Below are positions 16,618-48,094 of a stretch of DNA of 64,000 nt, one piece after another. Under the pieces are notes generated by a model, which did not search any database, had not been told where the DNA came from, and worked only from the letters and a program-made list of their open reading frames with translations. The position numbers were made by a program, and so were the translations under genes. Positions within the stretch are counted from its first letter, which is position 1. Every line of letters starts with the position of its first letter. Source of the DNA: Rhizobium sp. Q54 (lineage in GTDB: Bacteria; Pseudomonadota; Alphaproteobacteria; UBA2966; CAIVPW01); assembly GCA_945947575.1 (NCBI GenBank), contig CAMEYM010000001.1, positions 94,582 to 158,581 of the forward strand, read 5' to 3'.

Positions 16618-19007
16618 AGTTCACCCTCGGCTGGCTCCAGCAGCACCTCGACACCCCGGCCACCGCGCAGCAGGTTGCCGACAAGCTGACCGCCATCGGC
16701 TTGGAGGTCGAAAGCGTCTCCGATCCCGCGTCGGCGCTGGCGGCGTTCACCGTCGCCCACGTCTTGGAGGCGAAGCCACACCCGCAGGCCGACCGCCTGC
16801 GCCTGTGCACCGTGCAGACCGCCACCGGCACGGTCGAAGTCGTGTGCGGCGCGCCCAACGCCCGCACCGGCATGAAGGCGGTATACGCCCCGATCGGCGC
16901 GACGATTCCCGCAAGCGGCGACGTCCTCAAGAAAGCAAAGATCCGCGGCGTCGAATCGAACGGCATGCTCGTCTCCGAGCGCGAGCTCGGTCTTTCCGAC
17001 GAGCACGAAGGCATCATCGAGGTCGCTAGCGACGCCGCCATTGGAGCTTCGTTCGCGTCGATACGCGGCCTCGACGACGCGGTCATCGACATCTCCGTAA
17101 CGCCGAACCGCGGCGATTGCCTCGGCGTCTTTGGGATCGCGCGCGACCTCGCCGCCGCCGGTCTTGGGCGCCTGAAGCCGCTGGCGATCAGGCCCATCGC
17201 GGGCAAATTCAAGTCTCCCATCGGCGTGTCGCTGCAATTCACGCCCGACACGACGAGCGCCTGCAGCTACTTCGTCGGCCGCACCGTGCGCAACGTCAAG
17301 AACGGCCCGAGCCCCGAGTGGCTGCAGAAGTTCCTGCGCGCCGTCGGCCTGCGCCCGATCTCCGCCCTGGTCGACATGACCAACTACATGTCGCTCGCCT
17401 TCGCGCGCCCCCTCCACGTCTTCGACGCGGACAAAGTGTCCGGCAACCTGCACGTCCGTCTCTCGCGCAACGGGGAAAAGCTCGCCGGCCTCAACGGCAA
17501 GGAGTACGTGCTCGACGACCAGGTCACCGTCATCGCCGACGACTCCGGCGTCCTTGCCATGGGCGGCGTCGTCGGCGGCGAACCGTCCGGCTGCACCGAC
17601 GCGACCAGGAACGTCTTCATCGAATCCGCGATATTCGACACCCTGCGCACCGCCTCCACCGGCCGCCGCTACGAGATCATCTCCGACGCGCGCTTCCGGT
17701 TCGAGCGCGGCGTCGATCCGGAATTCGTGGGTCCTGGCATCGAGGAAGCGACGCGCCTCGTCCAGGAAATGTGCGGCGGCGAAGCCTCCGAGCTCGTCGT
17801 CACCGGCACCAAGCCCGCCTGGCAGCACGAGATCAAGGTGCGCCCGGCGCGCGTAAAGTCGCTCGGCGGTCTCGATCTATCGCCGCACGACGCGAGCCGC
17901 GTCCTGCAGGCGCTCGGCTGCCGCGTCGAGGATCGCGCCGGCGAAACCTTCGTCACGCCGCCGTCCTGGCGCCCCGACCTCGTTGGGGAGGCCGACTGCG
18001 TCGAGGAAGTCGTGCGCATCGTCGGCATCGACAAGGTGCCGCCGGTCTCGCTGCCGCGCGCCCGCGGCGTGCCGCGCCCCGCCCTCAATCCGTTGCAGCG
18101 CCGCGCCGGCATCGCCCGCCGCACGCTCGCCGCGCGCGGCCTGCTCGAGGCCGTGACGTTCTCGTTCACCGCGGCCAAGCTCGCGCGCCTGTTCGGCCAC
18201 ACCGATCCGAACCTCGTGCTGCAGAACCCGATCTCGGCGGACCTCGACGTCCTGCGTCCCACCGTGCTGCCGAACCTCGCCGCCGCCGTCGGCCGCAATC
18301 TCGACCGTGGCGCCGAAGACGTCGCCGTGTTCGAAGTAGGGCCGGCCTACGTCAGCGCCACGCCCGAAGGCCAGCTGCGCGTGGCCGGCGGCGTCCGCCA
18401 GGGCTCCGCGACGCCGCGCCAGTGGGCCGGCGGCGCGCGCCCCCTCGACGCGTTCGACGCCAAGGCCGACGCCCTCGCCGTGCTCGACGCGTGCGGTGTC
18501 GCCGGGGCAAGCGTCGAAGCCGGCGCTCCCGCCTGGTACCACCCCGGCCGCTCCGGCACCGTGCGCCTCGGCCCGAAGGCCGCGCTCGCCCACTTCGGCG
18601 AAGTGCACCCGCGCATCCTCGCCGAGCTCGGCCTCAAGGGCCCGCTCGTCGCGTTCGAGGTGTTCCTCAACGCCTTGCCGGCGTCCAAGGACAAGGGCAC
18701 GACGCGCGCCAAGCTCAACGCGCCCGACCTGTTGCCCGTGCTGCGCGACTTCGCCTTCGTCGTCGATGCGGCCGTCGCCGCCGCCACGCTCGTGCGCGCC
18801 GCCGAGAAAGCCGACCCGCTGATCGCCGGGGTGTCGCTGTTCGATTCCTTCTTGGGCAAGGGCATGGAGGCCGGCAAGAAGTCGCTCGCCATCACCGTCC
18901 GCATCCAGCCCGTCGAAAAGACCCTGACCGACCCCGAGATCGAAGCCATCGCCGCCAAGGTCGTCGCGGCCGTCACGAAGGCCACCGGCGGCACGCTGCG
19001 CAGCTAA
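16614..19007 (+). CDS. pheT: Phenylalanine--tRNA ligase beta subunit
   Basis: 798 aa from [35 protein letters not shown], with tRNA-binding, B3/4, B5 and FDX-ACB domains. The annotated ORF start at 16455 is a frame extension overlapping pheS. Confidence 0.95.
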
Positions 19008-19021
19008 CCCCAGAAAAGCAA

Positions 19022-19180
19022 AAAGGGCGCGCCCGGGAGGGAGGCGCGCCCTTCTTCTTTGCTCAACAGGGCACCGGGGGAAGGTGCCTTCTTCTTCGTT
19101 ACCTAGAGAGCACCCGGGGGGGGCAGGCGCTCTTTCTTCTTCTTGGTCCGCGGCCTTCGCGGGGGAGGGGAGGCCGAAGA
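19022..19180. terminator. Array of four consecutive GC-rich hairpins with G-rich loops (GGGAGGGAG, GGGGGA, GGGGGGG, GGGGGAGGGG). The first three are each followed by a TTCTTCTT tract, giving a tandem terminator-like / REP-like repeat array.
   Basis: Read directly from the sequence. A related GGGGGAGGG-containing palindrome recurs at 13443-13470 and 19366-19392. Confidence 0.5.
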
Positions 19181-19545
19181 CGATCGGCTCAACGCAACCG
19201 ATGCATGCAATCTATGCGGACCCGCCCAAGCTCCCTATTCGGAGGATGCCCTACGCGCGACTCGGCATCGCCTTAGCTTCGCCTCGTCGCACTCCCTATG
19301 CCGCCCCCGGGCCATGGCGTAGGCCCAGCTAGGCGCGCCCCGAACTTGGTGCATCCTTCGAGGTACCCTCCCCCATACCTTGGGGGAGGGTTGCGCAGGC
19401 TTACGAGCGCAGCGAGTTAGCCGCAGCTGGGTGAGGGGAGAAACAGACCGAGCAGGAGCGCGATGGCGTCCGCCGATACTGCGCGCCGTGCGCGAGCGCA
19501 TGCGCGACATCGGCACCCCCGCGCGCGCTCGGCTGCGAGCGCGAT

Positions 19546-19803
19546 GTGCAACGCACCTTCGTCCTCGAACGCATGCTCACCGCCGGCATGGGAGTCGTCT
19601 TGGGCACCATCGCCGGCCTGCTCACCGCCCACAGGCTCCGGTACCGCGCCCGGCGCAACTTCGGCGGACCCTTCGAGCCGCGCTGTCTCATCTTCGCCGG
19701 CATGGCGGTGGCCGTCCTCGGCATCGCCGCCTGCGCCTCCTCCTGCCCCGCCCTCTGCTCCGCGCGCCTTGCGCCGGCGATCGCGGTGCAGCACGTGGAG
19801 TAG
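19546..19803 (+). pseudogene. Remnant of an FtsX-like ABC permease (C-terminal about 85 aa only, MacB/LolE-type tail)
   Basis: The ORF ends ...GMAVAVLGIAACASSCPALCSARLAPAIAVQHVE, resembling the conserved FtsX-family C-terminus (PAxRAARLxPxxALRxE). The upstream 300 bp has no coherent frame. Confidence 0.4.
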
Positions 19804-20045
19804 CTCGGCAACCCGCAGGAAACGGCCGCGGCTTGGCCATCTGCCGCTCCACTTCGCCTACCATCAATCCGCCTATGGTGTTGCAGAAAGGCAACGCCGC
19901 GACACAAGCCGGGAGAGCTGTCTCCCTAGATTACAGGAGCTCCTTGCAGAACGGGTGGGAGCTGCTAAGGTAACGCTCATGAGCTCCCAAGCGGCGTGAG
20001 CGATTGTCGCTCTTCAACCGCCGAGCTCTCGTTAGGAGAAGACAA

Positions 20046-21164
20046 ATGTACGTCCATGTTCCCGCGATGCGTGGCCAGCTCGGCAGCCGTACCTACTACT
20101 CGTGCCTGATGCCGCTGAGCGCAGTTCCGCAAATGTTCAAGTTCACTGACTGGTCAGAGGTGACTCCGGAGGCCCGCGAGCAGCGGGTGCTCAATACGAA
20201 GAGAATTCCCGAGCTCGCCAACTACATTTTGGAGAACGAGGACGACTACCTGTTCGCCTCGATTACCGCCTCGTACAAGGGCGAGCCCATCTACAGCGAG
20301 CTTCAGAACGGCGGGGACGGATCGCTGGGAATGTTGAAACTGCGGCTCGGCGACGAGTTCATCATCAATGACGGACAGCATCGGTGCGCAGGGATCGCCG
20401 AGGCGATCAAGAAGAACCCGTTGATCGGAGATCATACGATCTCAGTCCTTCTGTTTCCCTACGAGAACACCGATCGGGTGCAGCAGATGTTCTCGGATCT
20501 CAACCGCTACGTTGAGAAGACCTCCAAGTCGCTGGATATTCTCTTCGACAAGCGCGACCCGTTTTCCATCGCCACGATGTTTGCCCTCGACAGAGTTGAG
20601 GTTTTCAAACAGTTGACCGAGAAGGTGAACATGGCACTCAAGTCCAAGGACACGAAGCTGTTCACCTTGGCGGCGCTCTACGACGCGAACCGCGAGCTCC
20701 TAAAGGGGTACGAAAACGCGGATATCGAAGAGAACGCGAATCGCTTGGTGGAGTTTTGGTCGAGCGTCGCTGAGCACATGCCTGACTGGAAGGACGTTCT
20801 GACGCGCTTCAAGACGTCGGTCGAGTTGCGCGCAGAGAAGATTTCTGCCCACTCCACGGTCTTACGAGCACTCGGCGGCCTTGGTTCAGAGCTGATGAAG
20901 GATCCTGACTGGAAGCAGCGCTTGGCAGGTCTCGAGAAGATCGATTGGTCGAAGAAGAACTCCGACTGGGAGAACGTCTGCATCATTGCCAACTCAGTCG
21001 TATCTAACCGACAGGCGCGTGCGGCGACCAAGACCTACATCAAGGCGAAGCTCGGAATGCCCCTTACCAAGGCAGAGGCGTCGGTGAACGAAGTGAGCAC
21101 GATCGTGGCGTCGCTGAAGCAAGCAGGGGTGACGTTCCCGGTCGATCAGGCGTCGTCCAACTAG
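20046..21164 (+). CDS. DGQHR domain protein (DndB-like, predicted ParB/Srx-fold DNA-binding protein), orphan
   Basis: 372 aa from the ATG at 20046, with SD aggag. Contains the signature FIINDGQHRCAGIAEAIKKNP. GC is about 55%, against about 68% for the surrounding genes. Confidence 0.8.
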   Translation: MYVHVPAMRGQLGSRTYYSCLMPLSAVPQMFKFTDWSEVTPEAREQRVLNTKRIPELANYILENEDDYLFASITASYKGEPIYSELQNGGDGSLGMLKLRLGDEFIINDGQHRCAGIAEAIKKNPLIGDHTISVLLFPYENTDRVQQMFSDLNRYVEKTSKSLDILFDKRDPFSIATMFALDRVEVFKQLTEKVNMALKSKDTKLFTLAALYDANRELLKGYENADIEENANRLVEFWSSVAEHMPDWKDVLTRFKTSVELRAEKISAHSTVLRALGGLGSELMKDPDWKQRLAGLEKIDWSKKNSDWENVCIIANSVVSNRQARAATKTYIKAKLGMPLTKAEASVNEVSTIVASLKQAGVTFPVDQASSN

Positions 21165-21232
21165 CAGGAGGGAAGAGGGCCGCGGGACTCCCGCGGCCCT
21201 CAACTCGCGCCGCAGCGACAACGGGGGATTTG

Positions 21233-21526
21233 ATGAAGGGTGACCACGAAACGAGATCGGCGAAACACGGCGAGAAGATGATCGAGGTACGTCTGCGGTT
21301 TTGGACTGACGGTCTAGCCGCGAAGGACTCTGTGATCCCGAAGCACGCTTGGACGGGTGGTGTGGTGCGGATCGAGGCGAATCAGACACACGGGATCAAA
21401 CCGGCCAAGCCCGTACCCTTCAATTCGCTCATGGATGTTGGCGCTGTAGTCGAAAAGGTCCTCGTCGCGCACGGTGTGATCCTTCATCCCAGCCGTCGCA
21501 TGCAGAAGTACATTGCGAGCGAGTAA
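21233..21526 (+). CDS. Hypothetical protein (97 aa), co-oriented partner of the DGQHR gene
   Basis: ATG preceded by ggggga. Similar low GC. Separated from the DGQHR stop by the hairpin gggccgcggg-actc-cccgcggccc. No recognisable motifs. Confidence 0.45.
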   Translation: MKGDHETRSAKHGEKMIEVRLRFWTDGLAAKDSVIPKHAWTGGVVRIEANQTHGIKPAKPVPFNSLMDVGAVVEKVLVAHGVILHPSRRMQKYIASE

Positions 21527-21745
21527 TCAGTCTGCACGTTGCGCGCTCAATTGACCCCGGCCCCCGAAAGCGGAACTACGCGGAGGCTACTGGGGACGAT
21601 TGAAGCTGCCGAGTGAGACCAAGCACTCGTGATTGTCTCAACGCTTGATCGGCGCCGTGAGACGCACGACTTCCCGCCTATGCTGCGCACCCCGCCCTTC
21701 GACGCCCGCGTCCTTCCCGCCACCGCGCCGCAGTCTGGCTCCGGT

Positions 21746-21833
21746 GAATCGCCCATATTTACGGTGGGTACGGTGGCCAGCGAGGTGCAGCGGCCGCGGC
21801 TCGCCCCCCATAAATCGCCCATATCTATGGTGA
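21746..21833. repeat. Two direct copies of aatcgcccatatYtaYggtg, 66 bp apart, followed by the palindrome ggtgcc-N-ggcacc, at the lepA-proximal edge of the low-GC islet
   Basis: Read directly: tgaatcgcccatatttacggtgg (21746-21767) and aaatcgcccatatctatggtga (21812-21833). Confidence 0.5.
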
Positions 21834-21924
21834 TGCGCCGGGTGCCGCTGGGCCCGGGCACCGGCCGCCCTCGGCCCTCGGCCTAACTTGTTACCCCCAC
21901 CCCTAGCTGCTACAAGCCCGGCCC

Positions 21925-23727
<1,803 letters not shown>

Positions 23728-24925: not shown

Positions 24926-25273
24926 TTAGGCGCGAGGACGCGCGCTGGCGCCGATGACCGGCGCGCGCGTCTGTGGCGGAGTCGCGCTGCGGAACAGGTA
25001 CAGCAGCACGCCGGAACAGACGAGCAACAGGGGCCACGCCGGCATCTCGAGCGCCGTCGTCATGCCCGGGTCCCATGCCCACGGCAGAAGGTCGCGCAGC
25101 CAAGCCTCGAGATTGTCGAGGCTGGCGGGGTGCAAGTCCTGCCAGAATTGGCCGAGCGGCAGGCTTGTGAGTTCGCCCGCGCGCAAGGAAAGAGCTACTT
25201 CCGCAGAGGCGGCGAGTAACGCCACCGCCAGGAACAACCAACCAAGTATCCGACCGACAACCATCGGTCTCAT
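24926..25273 (-). CDS. Hypothetical membrane protein
   Basis: About 115 aa from MRPMVVGRILGWLFLAVALLAASAEVALSL. Start uncertain (alternative TTG at 25339). Confidence 0.3.
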   Translation of the reverse strand: MRPMVVGRILGWLFLAVALLAASAEVALSLRAGELTSLPLGQFWQDLHPASLDNLEAWLRDLLPWAWDPGMTTALEMPAWPLLLVCSGVLLYLFRSATPPQTRAPVIGASARPRA

Positions 25274-25466
25274 CCCCTCTGATCCCCACGAATTGGGCCC
25301 GCCGAGGCAGCACAGTAAAGTTTTCCACAGGTTTGACAACGTGCGCTGCTACCAAAGCGTGCATTCGCGAGTTGTCCACAGCTTCGATCCTTAGCGTTGC
25401 AATCCCTTGGCCCCCCTCTATATTCCGGCCGCCCCGCGGGTTTGCCGTTAAGACTTTCAGGGCTGC

Positions 25467-47674: not shown

Positions 47675-48094
47675 CTAGTCCCGTGGATGGGCGCCTCTGC
47701 TTCGGCGCGCCGACGCCGGCTTGCTCGCCAGCACCGGCGTCAGGCGCTCGAAGGTCATGCGCCGTCCGTGCGCATCGACCTGGCTCCAGCCGTAGCGGAC
47801 CTTGAGGTCATCCAGCTCCGGCCAGGATTCGTCGCGCGTCGGCCAGCTCGCCCACTGGTCCTCGGTCGCATCGACGATCAGGATACGCGCCGCGCTGTCA
47901 CTGCCCAACGCCGCGCGCAGATCCGACAGCACCCGGTTGATGCCCGCGCTCGTGCGCGCAAACCACGTGCCGGGCGCCAGCGTCACCGTCTCGTACGTCT
48001 TCAGCGCGCCTCCGACGCGCGCAGCGTCGCGCGGCAGATCGCGACTGAAGCAGTGCACGAACAAGTTGCGCTTCGCGGTTTCACGCCAATTCAT
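47675..48094 (-). CDS. Hypothetical protein
   Basis: 139-aa ORF with coding-like GC3 bias and no recognisable motif. Confidence 0.4.
   Translation of the reverse strand: MNWRETAKRNLFVHCFSRDLPRDAARVGGALKTYETVTLAPGTWFARTSAGINRVLSDLRAALGSDSAARILIVDATEDQWASWPTRDESWPELDDLKVRYGWSQVDAHGRRMTFERLTPVLASKPASARRSRGAHPRD

What the first reader, a model, noticed from the sequence alone, without database searches (positions are those of the whole stretch)
19190..21900. Low-GC islet with an orphan DGQHR (DndB-like) protein plus a conserved-looking 97-aa partner, inserted between pheT and lepA
Seen in the sequence: the gene at 20046-21164 encodes a 372-aa protein carrying the diagnostic FIINDGQHRCAGIAEAIKKNP motif. 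It is followed, after a strong GC hairpin, by a co-oriented 97-aa ORF with no recognisable domain. Both genes are about 55% GC in a roughly 68% GC chromosome, and sit between two universally conserved genes (pheT, lepA). The islet is bounded by a four-hairpin terminator-like array (19022-19180), a decayed FtsX-like permease fragment (19546-19803) and a pair of 22-bp direct repeats (21746-21833). Established knowledge: DGQHR-domain proteins have a ParB/Srx-like fold. The characterised members are DndB, which binds DNA and regulates the dnd phosphorothioation operon, and DpdB of the 7-deazaguanine DNA-modification system. Both always act with partner enzymes (DndACDE, DptFGH, DpdA/C). None of those partners, and no restriction, methylase or other known defence genes, are present anywhere in the 64 kb. 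Inference: this is a horizontally acquired, self-contained two-gene cassette in which a ParB-fold DGQHR protein works with a novel small protein. Possible roles are a minimal defence/abortive module, a sensor of DNA modification, or a mobile-element regulator, and none of these has been described.
Basis: partly seen in the sequence, partly recalled or inferred. Interest (0 to 1): 0.8.

Follow-up and report, generated by a model that had tools for sequence, protein, structure and literature searches.

The report
Stand-alone DndB islet with operator array
A 2.2-kb piece of foreign DNA between two housekeeping genes carries a lone copy of DndB, a regulator known from DNA-sulfur-modification systems, together with a conserved array of probable binding sites in front of it; the small gene behind it is a separate, restriction-associated gene and not a fixed partner.

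Summary
A 372-aa full-length DndB/DGQHR protein (20046-21164) and a 97-aa ORF (21233-21526) sit at 57% GC between pheT and lepA. No dnd, dpd or ssp partner is in the 64 kb.

A sister strain shows that the acquired segment is 19441-21609. The hairpin array and the 22-bp repeats lie outside it, in the backbone.

The proposed obligate DndB + 97-aa cassette is not supported. None of 80 DndB-homolog loci encode the small protein. Only 1 independent case among about 75 small-protein loci has DndB. The small protein is its own family, often placed inside restriction operons (Mod-x-Res, HsdR-x-HsdS, upstream of GmrSD or PLD-helicase genes).

The DndB belongs to a large, promiscuously transferred clade. 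That clade is never linked to dndCDE and is 37% identical to an operon DndB.

New here:
- The clade carries a phased array of GAGCT(C) boxes 22 bp apart that brackets its promoter, plus a covarying leader hairpin.
- It also has a co-oriented downstream slot filled by unrelated genes.

Most likely it is a nucleotide-gated, self-repressing DNA-binding protein that controls whatever gene follows it. Protein binding to the boxes is inferred, not shown.

The parts
19441..21609 (.). Strain-specific (acquired or replaced) segment in the pheT-lepA intergenic hot spot
   Evidence: blastn against sister strain L182: identity 99.2% up to 19440 and 98.6% from 21610, with 143 unrelated bp in between. Relatives with 93% and 90% LepA identity have only 202 and 247 nt between pheT and lepA.
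19546..19803 (+). Possible remnant of the C-terminus of an FtsX/ADOP-type permease (weak), 72% GC
   Evidence: Pfam FtsX E 0.018 and NCBIfam ADOP positions 723-802 of 803 at E 0.003, both below the curated cutoffs. No extension upstream.
19915..20028 (+). Phased array of five GAGCT(C/G) boxes at 19915-20, 19937-42, 19959-64, 19981-86 and 20023-28 (spacing 22, 22, 22, 42 bp)
   Evidence: It is the only chain of 3 or more phased boxes in the 64 kb. The same array sits upstream of DndB in 54 of 80 homolog loci. 56 of the 57 chains of 4 or more boxes in 1.29 Mb lie directly upstream of a DndB start. Spacing is 22 bp in 156 of about 330 gaps. There are 4.65 boxes per 170 nt against 0.27-0.35 in controls.
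19944..19971 (+). Putative sigma-70 promoter (-35 TTGCAG 19944-49; -10 TAAGGT 19966-71) bracketed by boxes 2 and 3
   Evidence: Inferred by register with homologs, where a box is followed directly by TTGAC(A/T) and the next box precedes a TAnnnT hexamer, e.g. L001, L006, L013. The generic promoter scan did not call it.
19991..20021 (+). Leader stem-loop: outer stem GCGG/CCGC, inner stem GAGCGA/TCGCTC (19998-20012), loop TTG
   Evidence: An inner hairpin occurs at -47 to -62 in about 55 of 79 loci. On a gap-free anchored alignment, 80.4% of cells are paired against 71.7% in shuffles (0 of 500 shuffles as high). The covariation score is 0.239 against 0.124 in shuffles and 0.07-0.14 in slid controls. 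Own-versus-cross flank complementarity: 1 of 5000 permutations as good.
20046..21164 (+). Stand-alone DndB-family protein, 372 aa: ParB/Srx-fold DGQHR domain plus a C-terminal helical domain with R262-x6-H269
21175..21201 (+). Perfect 13-bp-arm palindrome or hairpin between the two genes, with no T-tract
   Evidence: The terminator scan did not call it.
21233..21526 (+). 97-aa protein of an independent, restriction-associated family of unknown fold

Best explanation
Window 19441-21609 is a small acquired islet in a recombination hot spot between pheT and lepA. Its main gene is an intact member of a very large, horizontally mobile clade of stand-alone DndB proteins, which have lost all connection to the DndCDE sulfur-modification enzymes.

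The gene travels with its own roughly 130-bp control region. That region holds five to seven copies of the 6-bp palindrome GAGCTC spaced two helical turns (22 bp) apart. They bracket the -35 and -10 elements and continue into the leader, where a conserved stem-loop sits between the last two boxes.

The most likely mechanism rests on analogy. Operon-borne DndB is an ATP-modulated repressor of its own promoter, and ParB/KorB-type proteins are nucleotide-gated DNA binders. By that analogy, this protein binds cooperatively to the box array and keeps its own transcription tightly off until a nucleotide-dependent signal releases it. It would repress in the same way any gene read through downstream.

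In this clade the downstream position is a swappable slot. In different genomes it holds a GHKL-like ATPase with a DNA methylase, an MBL-fold protein, or one of several unrelated proteins of about 100 aa. Here it holds a 97-aa protein from a family that normally sits inside restriction-enzyme operons. The pair is therefore a chance or modular combination of two defence-island genes, not a co-evolved two-gene system.

Shown: family membership, acquisition, absence of partners, lack of co-occurrence, the box array and the hairpin.
Inferred: that DndB binds the boxes, that it represses, that the 97-aa gene is co-transcribed, and any role in defence.
For: Membership and fold:
-.

Acquisition and hot spot:
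-. Three different contents occur at the same site in relatives with 97% or more LepA identity. An extra IS1595 insert is present in L085.

No partners:
-. DndC, DndD and DndE gave zero hits in the window and in 84 clade loci within 10 kb on either side.

A clade distinct from operon DndB:
- 36.6% identity to Salmonella DndB of a dndBCDE operon.
- That operon's upstream region has TACG/CGTA repeats and no GAGCT box.
- The window has no TACG-N10-CGTA site.

Abundance and mobility:
- 2680 homolog clusters; the top 120 are all at least 69% identical. The 80 genome loci span many phyla.
- Neighbours are mostly housekeeping genes.

No conserved partner:
-.

Swappable slot:
- 29 of 75 loci carry recurrent, mutually unrelated downstream families, kept across DndB identities of 52-59%.
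- The window's closest DndB relatives (74-75% identical) carry GHKL-like or DUF2188 partners.

Operator array:
-.

Leader hairpin covariation:
-.

Precedent for DndB as an ATP-modulated autorepressor:
- PMC4507180, and Xia et al. 2019 as cited in PMC10853773.
- A DndB-like protein binds ATP and GTP (bioRxiv 10.1101/2025.10.10.680097).
Against: - No experiment or computation here shows that the protein binds GAGCTC. A host factor could bind the boxes, or they could act at the RNA level.
- The structure model has only medium confidence (pLDDT 72), and no DNA-binding domain was identified.
- The DndB + 97-aa adjacency recurs once (L089) in the same order and orientation, with DndB only 56% identical. 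Some functional affinity therefore cannot be excluded.
- The rest of the genome was not available, so a dnd cluster elsewhere cannot be ruled out.
- The promoter assignment is by analogy only.
Confidence: 0.55

Rival explanations
1. One reading: DndB and the 97-aa protein form a dedicated two-gene defence, abortive-infection or sensor cassette and need each other.
For: The two genes are co-oriented and 68 nt apart, have the same GC (0.57), and no promoter was detected between them. A second, diverged instance has the same order in L089, next to an integrase, AbiEii and a D12 methylase.
Against: None of 80 DndB loci contain the small gene. None of 80 unbiased small-protein loci contain DndB. 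The two DndBs that do have this partner are no closer to each other (55.6%) than random clade pairs (median 56%). The small protein is usually operonic with restriction subunits instead.
Confidence: 0.1
2. The DndB is a self-sufficient single-protein abortive-infection or defence effector. A ParB-like NTPase sensor is fused to a HEPN-type RNase (R-x6-H), and the operator array exists only to keep a toxic gene silent.
Confidence: 0.2
3. It is a canonical DndB acting in trans on a dndCDE cluster located elsewhere in this genome.
For: It reaches the NCBIfam DndB equivalog cutoff by 0.7 bits. dndA is known to be unlinked in many genomes (PMC3632139).
Against: No clade member among 84 loci has dndC, dndD or dndE within 10 kb. 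The operator is of a different type from the Salmonella one. The protein is only 37% identical to an operon DndB. In described systems dndB is the first gene of the operon it represses (PMC4507180).
Confidence: 0.07
4. The islet is decaying junk: a relic of a larger island whose genes no longer function.
For: It sits next to a probable permease gene remnant. No mobility gene or target duplication is present. The slot gene here is followed by nothing.
Against: Both ORFs are intact. DndB keeps every family-invariant residue and its complete operator array and hairpin. The 97-aa protein keeps all 14 invariant residues of its family. The islet is identical in at least 6 independent metagenome assemblies.
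Confidence: 0.08

Closest known systems
DndB / DptB of dndBCDE phosphorothioation operons (Salmonella, Streptomyces)
   Same: Same Pfam and NCBIfam family over the full length. Shares DGQHR, QR, QQxFxDxN and R-x6-H residues. It is the first gene of its transcription unit, with repeated sites in its own promoter.
   Different: Only 36.6% identical to the Salmonella protein. Never next to dndCDE. The operator is a 22-bp-phased GAGCTC array rather than TACG-N10-CGTA repeats. The downstream gene is variable.
DpdB of the 7-deazaguanine (Dpd) system
   Same: A DGQHR/ParB-like ATPase that works on DNA.
   Different: DpdB acts with DpdA and DpdC. No Dpd component was detected in the window.
ParB, KorB and Noc: nucleotide-gated DNA-binding proteins of the ParB/Srx fold
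   Different: No recognisable HTH domain. It has DGQHR instead of the GERRxR box. The nucleotide is probably ATP or GTP rather than CTP. Sliding or clamping is untested.
ParR-parC of plasmid R1 and iteron-type operators (own knowledge)
   Same: Short repeats in helical phase flank the promoter of the gene encoding the protein that binds them, giving cooperative autorepression.
   Different: ParR is a ribbon-helix-helix protein with a ParM partner. Here no partition ATPase is present, and binding is only inferred.
DUF262 / GmrSD, SspE and BrxU
   Same: Sister ParB-like NTPase domain (DGQQR). They live in defence islands. The 97-aa family is also found next to GmrSD genes.
   Different: Those proteins carry an HNH/DUF1524 nuclease domain. 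This DndB has none.

Membership tests
DndB family (Pfam PF14072 / NCBIfam TIGR03187 DGQHR) | Full-length profile match above the curated cutoffs | tested here: met
   PF14072 at 332 bits (cutoff 29.1), profile positions 1-337 of 338. TIGR03187 at 195 bits (cutoff 58.9).
DndB family (Pfam PF14072 / NCBIfam TIGR03187 DGQHR) | Signature residues: QR pair, DGQHR, FxxxN | tested here: met
   Q46-R47, D109-R113 and F149...N153 are at least 97% conserved across 83 sequences, including distant plasmid homologs.
Functional DndB of a phosphorothioation system (TIGR03233 equivalog) | Score at or above the equivalog cutoff | tested here: inconclusive
   328.7 bits against a cutoff of 328. Formally met, but by 0.7 bits.
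Functional DndB of a phosphorothioation system (TIGR03233 equivalog) | Encoded with dndC, dndD and dndE (first gene of dndBCDE) | tested here: not met
   tblastn with Salmonella DndC, DndD and DndE: no hit in the 64-kb window or in 84 clade loci within 10 kb on either side. PADLOC on 61 window ORFs found DndB only. The rest of the genome was not testable.
Functional DndB of a phosphorothioation system (TIGR03233 equivalog) | TACG-N10-CGTA-type operator in its own promoter | tested here: not met
   None in the window. The Salmonella upstream region has TACG/CGTA repeats and no GAGCT box.
DpdB (Dpd 7-deazaguanine system) | Co-encoded DpdA and DpdC | tested here: not met
   No Dpd family among the PADLOC hits of the window ORFs. 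The families not listed all had E above 1.2e-5.
ParB/Srx fold | N-terminal domain superposes on ParB-like structures | tested here: met
HEPN RNase domain | R-x4-6-H dyad in an all-helical domain | tested here: inconclusive
   0 of 80 loci from the DndB side. From the small-protein side, 2 of 73 loci, both copies of the single case L089/L090, and 0 of the 80 metagenome loci.
Integron cassette or transposon cargo | attC or terminal repeats, target-site duplication, recombinase | tested here: not met
   No duplication or shared flank at the junctions. No recombinase in the islet. The IS1595 in variant L085 is a separate insert.

The most novel reading that the evidence does not exclude
The stand-alone DndB clade is an undescribed 'plug-and-play' control module. 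A ParB-fold, nucleotide-gated protein would polymerise on a phased GAGCTC iteron array, and possibly also act on its own leader hairpin through the R-x6-H dyad. It would thereby gate expression of interchangeable cargo genes, including a MORC-like ATPase with a methylase and several unknown small proteins. On this reading the 97-aa protein is a new accessory factor of restriction systems.
Probability: 0.3. Interest if true: 0.75.

Novelty: new variant of a known kind. Interest (0 to 1): 0.55.

Why it matters
- **Annotation.** Thousands of proteins in public databases are named 'DNA sulfur modification protein DndB' although, in this clade, none of the 84 loci examined sits near the sulfur-modification enzymes. 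That label is probably misleading for the whole clade.
- **A testable handle on function.** The clade comes with a strikingly regular cis-element: GAGCTC every 22 bp around the promoter, plus a covarying leader hairpin.
- **A variable downstream slot.** This is the pattern seen for regulators and sensors of mobile defence genes.
- **The 97-aa family.** It is a conserved small protein embedded in type I and type III restriction operons and has no known fold.

Tried and rejected
- **Conserved neighbour of DndB.** All-against-all clustering of ORFs within 6 kb on either side in 80 loci found no family in more than 11 loci.
- **Conserved neighbour of the 97-aa family.** None found.
- **Remote homology between the 97-aa family and other DndB partners.** hhalign probabilities were at most 0.5%, and hmmsearch found nothing.
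- **Phage origin.** No clade DndB in IMG/VR and one small-protein hit. Phage and plasmid 'DndB' proteins are distant (22-39% identical) and lack the box array. The small protein is absent from PLSDB.
- **RNAalifold on a MAFFT alignment of the leaders.** It predicted nothing because the 3' arms were out of register. I replaced it with a core-anchored, gap-free alignment.
- **Rfam.** Nothing above gathering score in 18800-22100.
- **Junction repeats or att sites.** None found.
- **MADS-like PADLOC hits (mad3, mad8, AriA).** These proved to be generic ABC ATPases.
- **Plasmid 'DndB' hits as a source of dndCDE comparators.** H2, H3, H5, H6 and H19 all lacked dndCDE. A Salmonella contig in the phage collection supplied the comparators.
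Full report
**What is in the sequence**

- ORF 20046-21164(+) encodes a 372-aa protein with the DGQHR motif.
- It matches Pfam DndB over the whole profile (E 4e-99) and the NCBIfam DGQHR domain (195 bits).
- It scores 328.7 bits on the NCBIfam DndB equivalog against a cutoff of 328, and E 4e-101 on the PADLOC DndB model.
- A perfect 13-bp-arm palindrome follows at 21175-21201.
- Next comes a co-oriented 97-aa ORF (21233-21526) with no match in Pfam, NCBIfam, PADLOC or PHROGs.
- Both genes are 57% GC, against 65-72% for the genes around them.
- The flanks are pheS/pheT and lepA.
- The organism is an uncultured alphaproteobacterium (MAG GCA_947486195.1). Its LepA is 77% identical to that of Stella/Stellaceae.

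**Is it acquired, and where are the edges?**

The identical islet occurs in at least six metagenome assemblies of the same species. Relatives were found through LepA.
- Relatives with 93% and 90% LepA identity have only 202 and 247 nt between pheT and lepA.
- A 97% relative carries a different insert there, a DUF4386 gene.
- A 98% relative (L182) matches the window at 99.2% up to 19440 and at 98.6% from 21610. It has 143 unrelated bp in place of window 19441-21609.
- One population variant (L085) has an extra IS1595 + PIN + methyltransferase-like insert at the same site.

So the pheT-lepA spacer is a hot spot, and the islet is 19441-21609.
- The four-hairpin array (19020-19180) and the 22-bp repeats (21746-21833) are backbone, not boundaries.
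- I found no target duplication, att-like repeat or recombinase.
- The 'FtsX fragment' is a sub-threshold match (E 0.018 and 0.003) inside the variable segment, at 72% GC.

**Are dnd partners missing?**

Yes, within the limits of the window.
- PADLOC on 61 window ORFs returned DndB, generic ABC-ATPase cross-hits and one unlocated TIR-like hit.
- A real dndBCDE operon from Salmonella Infantis SARB27 supplied DndC, DndD and DndE as queries.
- tblastn with these found nothing in the window or in 84 loci of relatives.

**Is the 97-aa protein a conserved partner?**

No.
- A scan of one genome per species returned 80 loci with DndB relatives, 45-75% identical, from Alpha-, Beta- and Gammaproteobacteria, Acidobacteriota, Verrucomicrobiota, Chloroflexota, Planctomycetota, CPR and others.
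- None encodes the 97-aa protein within 10 kb on either side.
- The 97-aa protein has its own family: 214 clusters, 57-72% identical, with 14 invariant residues.
- In 80 metagenomic loci of that family, none has a DndB gene.
- The single other adjacency is L089. There a 360-aa DndB is followed after 141 nt by a family member, beside an integrase, AbiEii and a D12 methylase.
- Those two DndBs are 55.6% identical, no closer than random clade pairs (median 56%).

**What the 97-aa family looks like elsewhere**

It is usually co-oriented and tightly packed with restriction genes:
- between HsdR and HsdS of a type I system that also carries Mrr (L093-95);
- between type III Mod and Res (L118, L154, L164);
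- directly upstream of PLD-nuclease/SNF2-helicase fusions (L130, L146) and of GmrSD (L171, L176).

Among 105 immediate neighbours, the commonest Pfam families are ResIII (5), GmrSD_N (3), N6_N4_Mtase (2), PLDc_2 (2) and NOV_C (2).

Its AF2 model (pLDDT 77.7, three strands plus two helices) has no match in PDB or BFVD. Its function stays unknown. The best description is a restriction-associated accessory protein.

**The DndB clade**

- The protein search returned 2680 clusters. The best 120 are all at least 69% identical to the query, and sources name many of them 'DNA sulfur modification protein DndB'.
- The window protein is 36.6% identical to the Salmonella operon DndB.
- Plasmid and phage 'DndB' or 'DGQHR' proteins are 22-39% identical.
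- Residues conserved in at least 97% of 83 sequences, distant ones included, are R44, Q46, R47, D109-G-Q-H-R113, Q146, Q147, F149, D151, N153, R170 and R262.
- H269 is present in all but one of the representative sequences inspected. The R-x6-H dyad is also in the Salmonella protein.
- This fits the published description of DndB as ParB-like plus HEPN (PMC3632139).
- It superposes on HEPN proteins only at noise level.

**Neighbours of the clade**

- No neighbour family occurs in more than 11 of 80 loci.
- Immediate neighbours are mostly housekeeping genes (CstA, ThiC, RNR, DnaJ and others). A few are resolvases, MBL-fold proteins, a D12 methylase and AbiEi.
- So the gene often sits as a tiny insert between core genes, as it does here.
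- 63 of 75 loci have a co-oriented ORF starting within -60 to +350 nt of the DndB stop.
- 29 of 75 carry one of nine recurrent, mutually unrelated downstream families. The main ones:
  - an 830-aa protein with GHKL-like motifs (7 loci); a convergent N6_N4 DNA methylase family recurs in 8 loci;
  - a 104-aa protein whose start overlaps the DndB stop (6 loci);
  - DUF2188 (5 loci), PC4-like (4 loci) and MBL-fold (3 loci).
- Several of these pairings persist across DndB identities of only 52-59%.
- The window's nearest DndB relatives (74-75% identical) carry GHKL-like or DUF2188 partners.
- The downstream position therefore behaves as a swappable slot.

**A new cis-element**

Upstream of the clade's genes lies an array of GAGCT(C/G) boxes.
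- In the window they are at 19915, 19937, 19959, 19981 and 20023 (spacing 22, 22, 22, 42 bp).
- Across 79 loci the spacing between successive boxes is 22 bp in 156 of about 330 gaps, 23 bp in 48 and 21 bp in 16.
- The last 170 nt hold 4.65 boxes on average, against 0.35 inside the coding region and 0.27 in shuffles.
- This is the only chain of 3 or more phased boxes in the whole 64-kb window. The same is true in L089, L096, L186 and L187.
- In 1.29 Mb of locus DNA, 56 of 57 chains of 4 or more boxes lie directly upstream of a DndB start, in 54 of 80 loci.
- Only the 6-bp core is conserved.
- In many loci a box is followed directly by TTGAC, and the next box by a TAnnnT hexamer. The promoter is thus bracketed by boxes. 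The window fits this register (TTGCAG ... TAAGGT).
- The Salmonella operon DndB and the distant plasmid homologs lack the array.

**The leader hairpin**

Between the last two boxes sits a stem-loop. In the window the inner stem is GAGCGA-TTG-TCGCTC at 19998-20012, and the outer stem is GCGG/CCGC.
- An inner hairpin is found at -47 to -62 in about 55 of 79 loci. Compensatory variants occur (GAACGA/TCGTTC, GCGCG/CGCGC, GAGCGG/CCGCTC).
- Complementarity of each locus's own flanks beats mismatched flanks: 1 of 5000 permutations is as good.
- On a gap-free, core-anchored alignment of 26 loci, 80.4% of cells pair against 71.7% in shuffles (0 of 500 as high).
- The covariation score is 0.239, against 0.124 in shuffles and 0.07-0.14 in slid controls.
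- This favours an RNA-level structure in the 5' leader.

**Interpretation**

Operon DndB is an ATP-modulated repressor that binds repeats in its own promoter (PMC4507180; PMC10853773). A DndB-like protein binds ATP and GTP (bioRxiv 10.1101/2025.10.10.680097). ParB-fold proteins such as KorB repress through palindromic operators (own knowledge).

The simplest reading is that this stand-alone DndB binds its phased GAGCTC array cooperatively. It would then auto-repress a transcription unit that includes whatever gene occupies the slot. Here that gene is a restriction-associated 97-aa protein, which probably arrived with it (same GC, no intervening promoter detected).

Binding, repression, co-transcription and any defence role are inferences.

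Rival readings, scored in the report sections:
- a single-protein ParB-HEPN abortive-infection effector;
- a dedicated two-gene cassette;
- a trans-acting regulator of an unseen dnd cluster;
- decay.

**Novelty**

Orphan ParB-fold proteins on mobile elements are known in general, and DndB is a known family. I did not find a description of this dndCDE-free clade, its phased operator array, its leader hairpin or its swappable slot in the papers searched.

I rate it a new variant of a known kind, of moderate interest.

Noticed in passing
window 19019-19190, minus strand: The 'four-hairpin terminator array' after pheT reads on the minus strand as four hairpins with C-rich loops (CCUCCCUCCC, CCCCCCC, UUCCCCC) separated by AAGAAGAAG, ending in a stem plus UUUUU. 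Rfam gives a full-length but sub-threshold match to the alphaproteobacterial sRNA ar14 (28 bits, gathering score 58.8). The fold z-score is -2.6. It is backbone sequence, 99% conserved in the sister strain that lacks the islet. It may be an ar14-type sRNA gene.
   Followed up: partly
L085 4705-8140 (same species; inserts at window ~19387): One population variant carries an extra insert of about 3.4 kb between pheT and the islet. It holds an IS1595 transposase, a PIN_10 protein, a 243-aa ORF and a Methyltransf_24-like gene. This shows ongoing turnover at the hot spot.
   Followed up: partly
window, ORF not located: One of the 61 window ORFs gives PADLOC TIR-effector / PycTIR hits (E about 7e-12). 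It is not among the 10 large ORFs rescanned with PADLOC. Two further ORFs, 47678-48094 and 24926-25339, were checked only against Pfam, which found no family.
   Followed up: partly
L001, L010, L019, L030, L049, L065 (DndB +1 and +2 genes): A recurrent three-gene arrangement: stand-alone DndB, then an 820-860-aa protein with Bergerat/GHKL-like motifs, then a convergent N6_N4 DNA methyltransferase of about 400-450 aa. Pfam finds no family for the large protein. A 597-aa relative in L186 hits HATPase_c weakly. It resembles MORC-type restriction-modification-like systems.
   Followed up: partly
L093-L095, L118, L154, L164, L130, L146, L171, L176: The 97-aa family is embedded in restriction operons: HsdR-x-HsdS-Mrr-...-HsdM, type III Mod-x-Res, x-PLD/SNF2 helicase, and x-GmrSD. 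Its stop and start codons often abut the neighbouring genes. It is an uncharacterised small component of restriction loci.
   Followed up: partly
PLSDB plasmids (H2-H40); L097, L178, L179, L181: 952 plasmids, 814 of them conjugative, carry DGQHR/'DndB' genes without dndCDE. They include plasmids of about 63.5 kb in Klebsiella and Enterobacter. Several sit among ssb, anti-restriction, DNA methylase, HU/H-NS and ParB genes, which is typical of plasmid leading regions. One is on a Vibrio phage-plasmid.
   Followed up: no
L187 3757-7773: A DndB + DUF2188 pair, flanked by a RES-Xre and a ParE-Phd toxin-antitoxin module, splits a NiFe-hydrogenase large-subunit gene into pieces of 472 and 177 aa.
   Followed up: no
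L013-L032 subset of leaders (e.g. L014 2135-2176): In about 20 loci the leader hairpin has a 17-nt core, GAGCGAGCTGTTCGCTC. Its loop displays another GAGCTG box in phase with the array. In the window type (15-nt core, loop TTG) this box is lost.
   Followed up: no
L188 16001-17056 (Salmonella Infantis SARB27): The canonical dndBCDE locus has a second, divergent DGQHR-domain gene about 2 kb downstream of dndE on the opposite strand.
   Followed up: no
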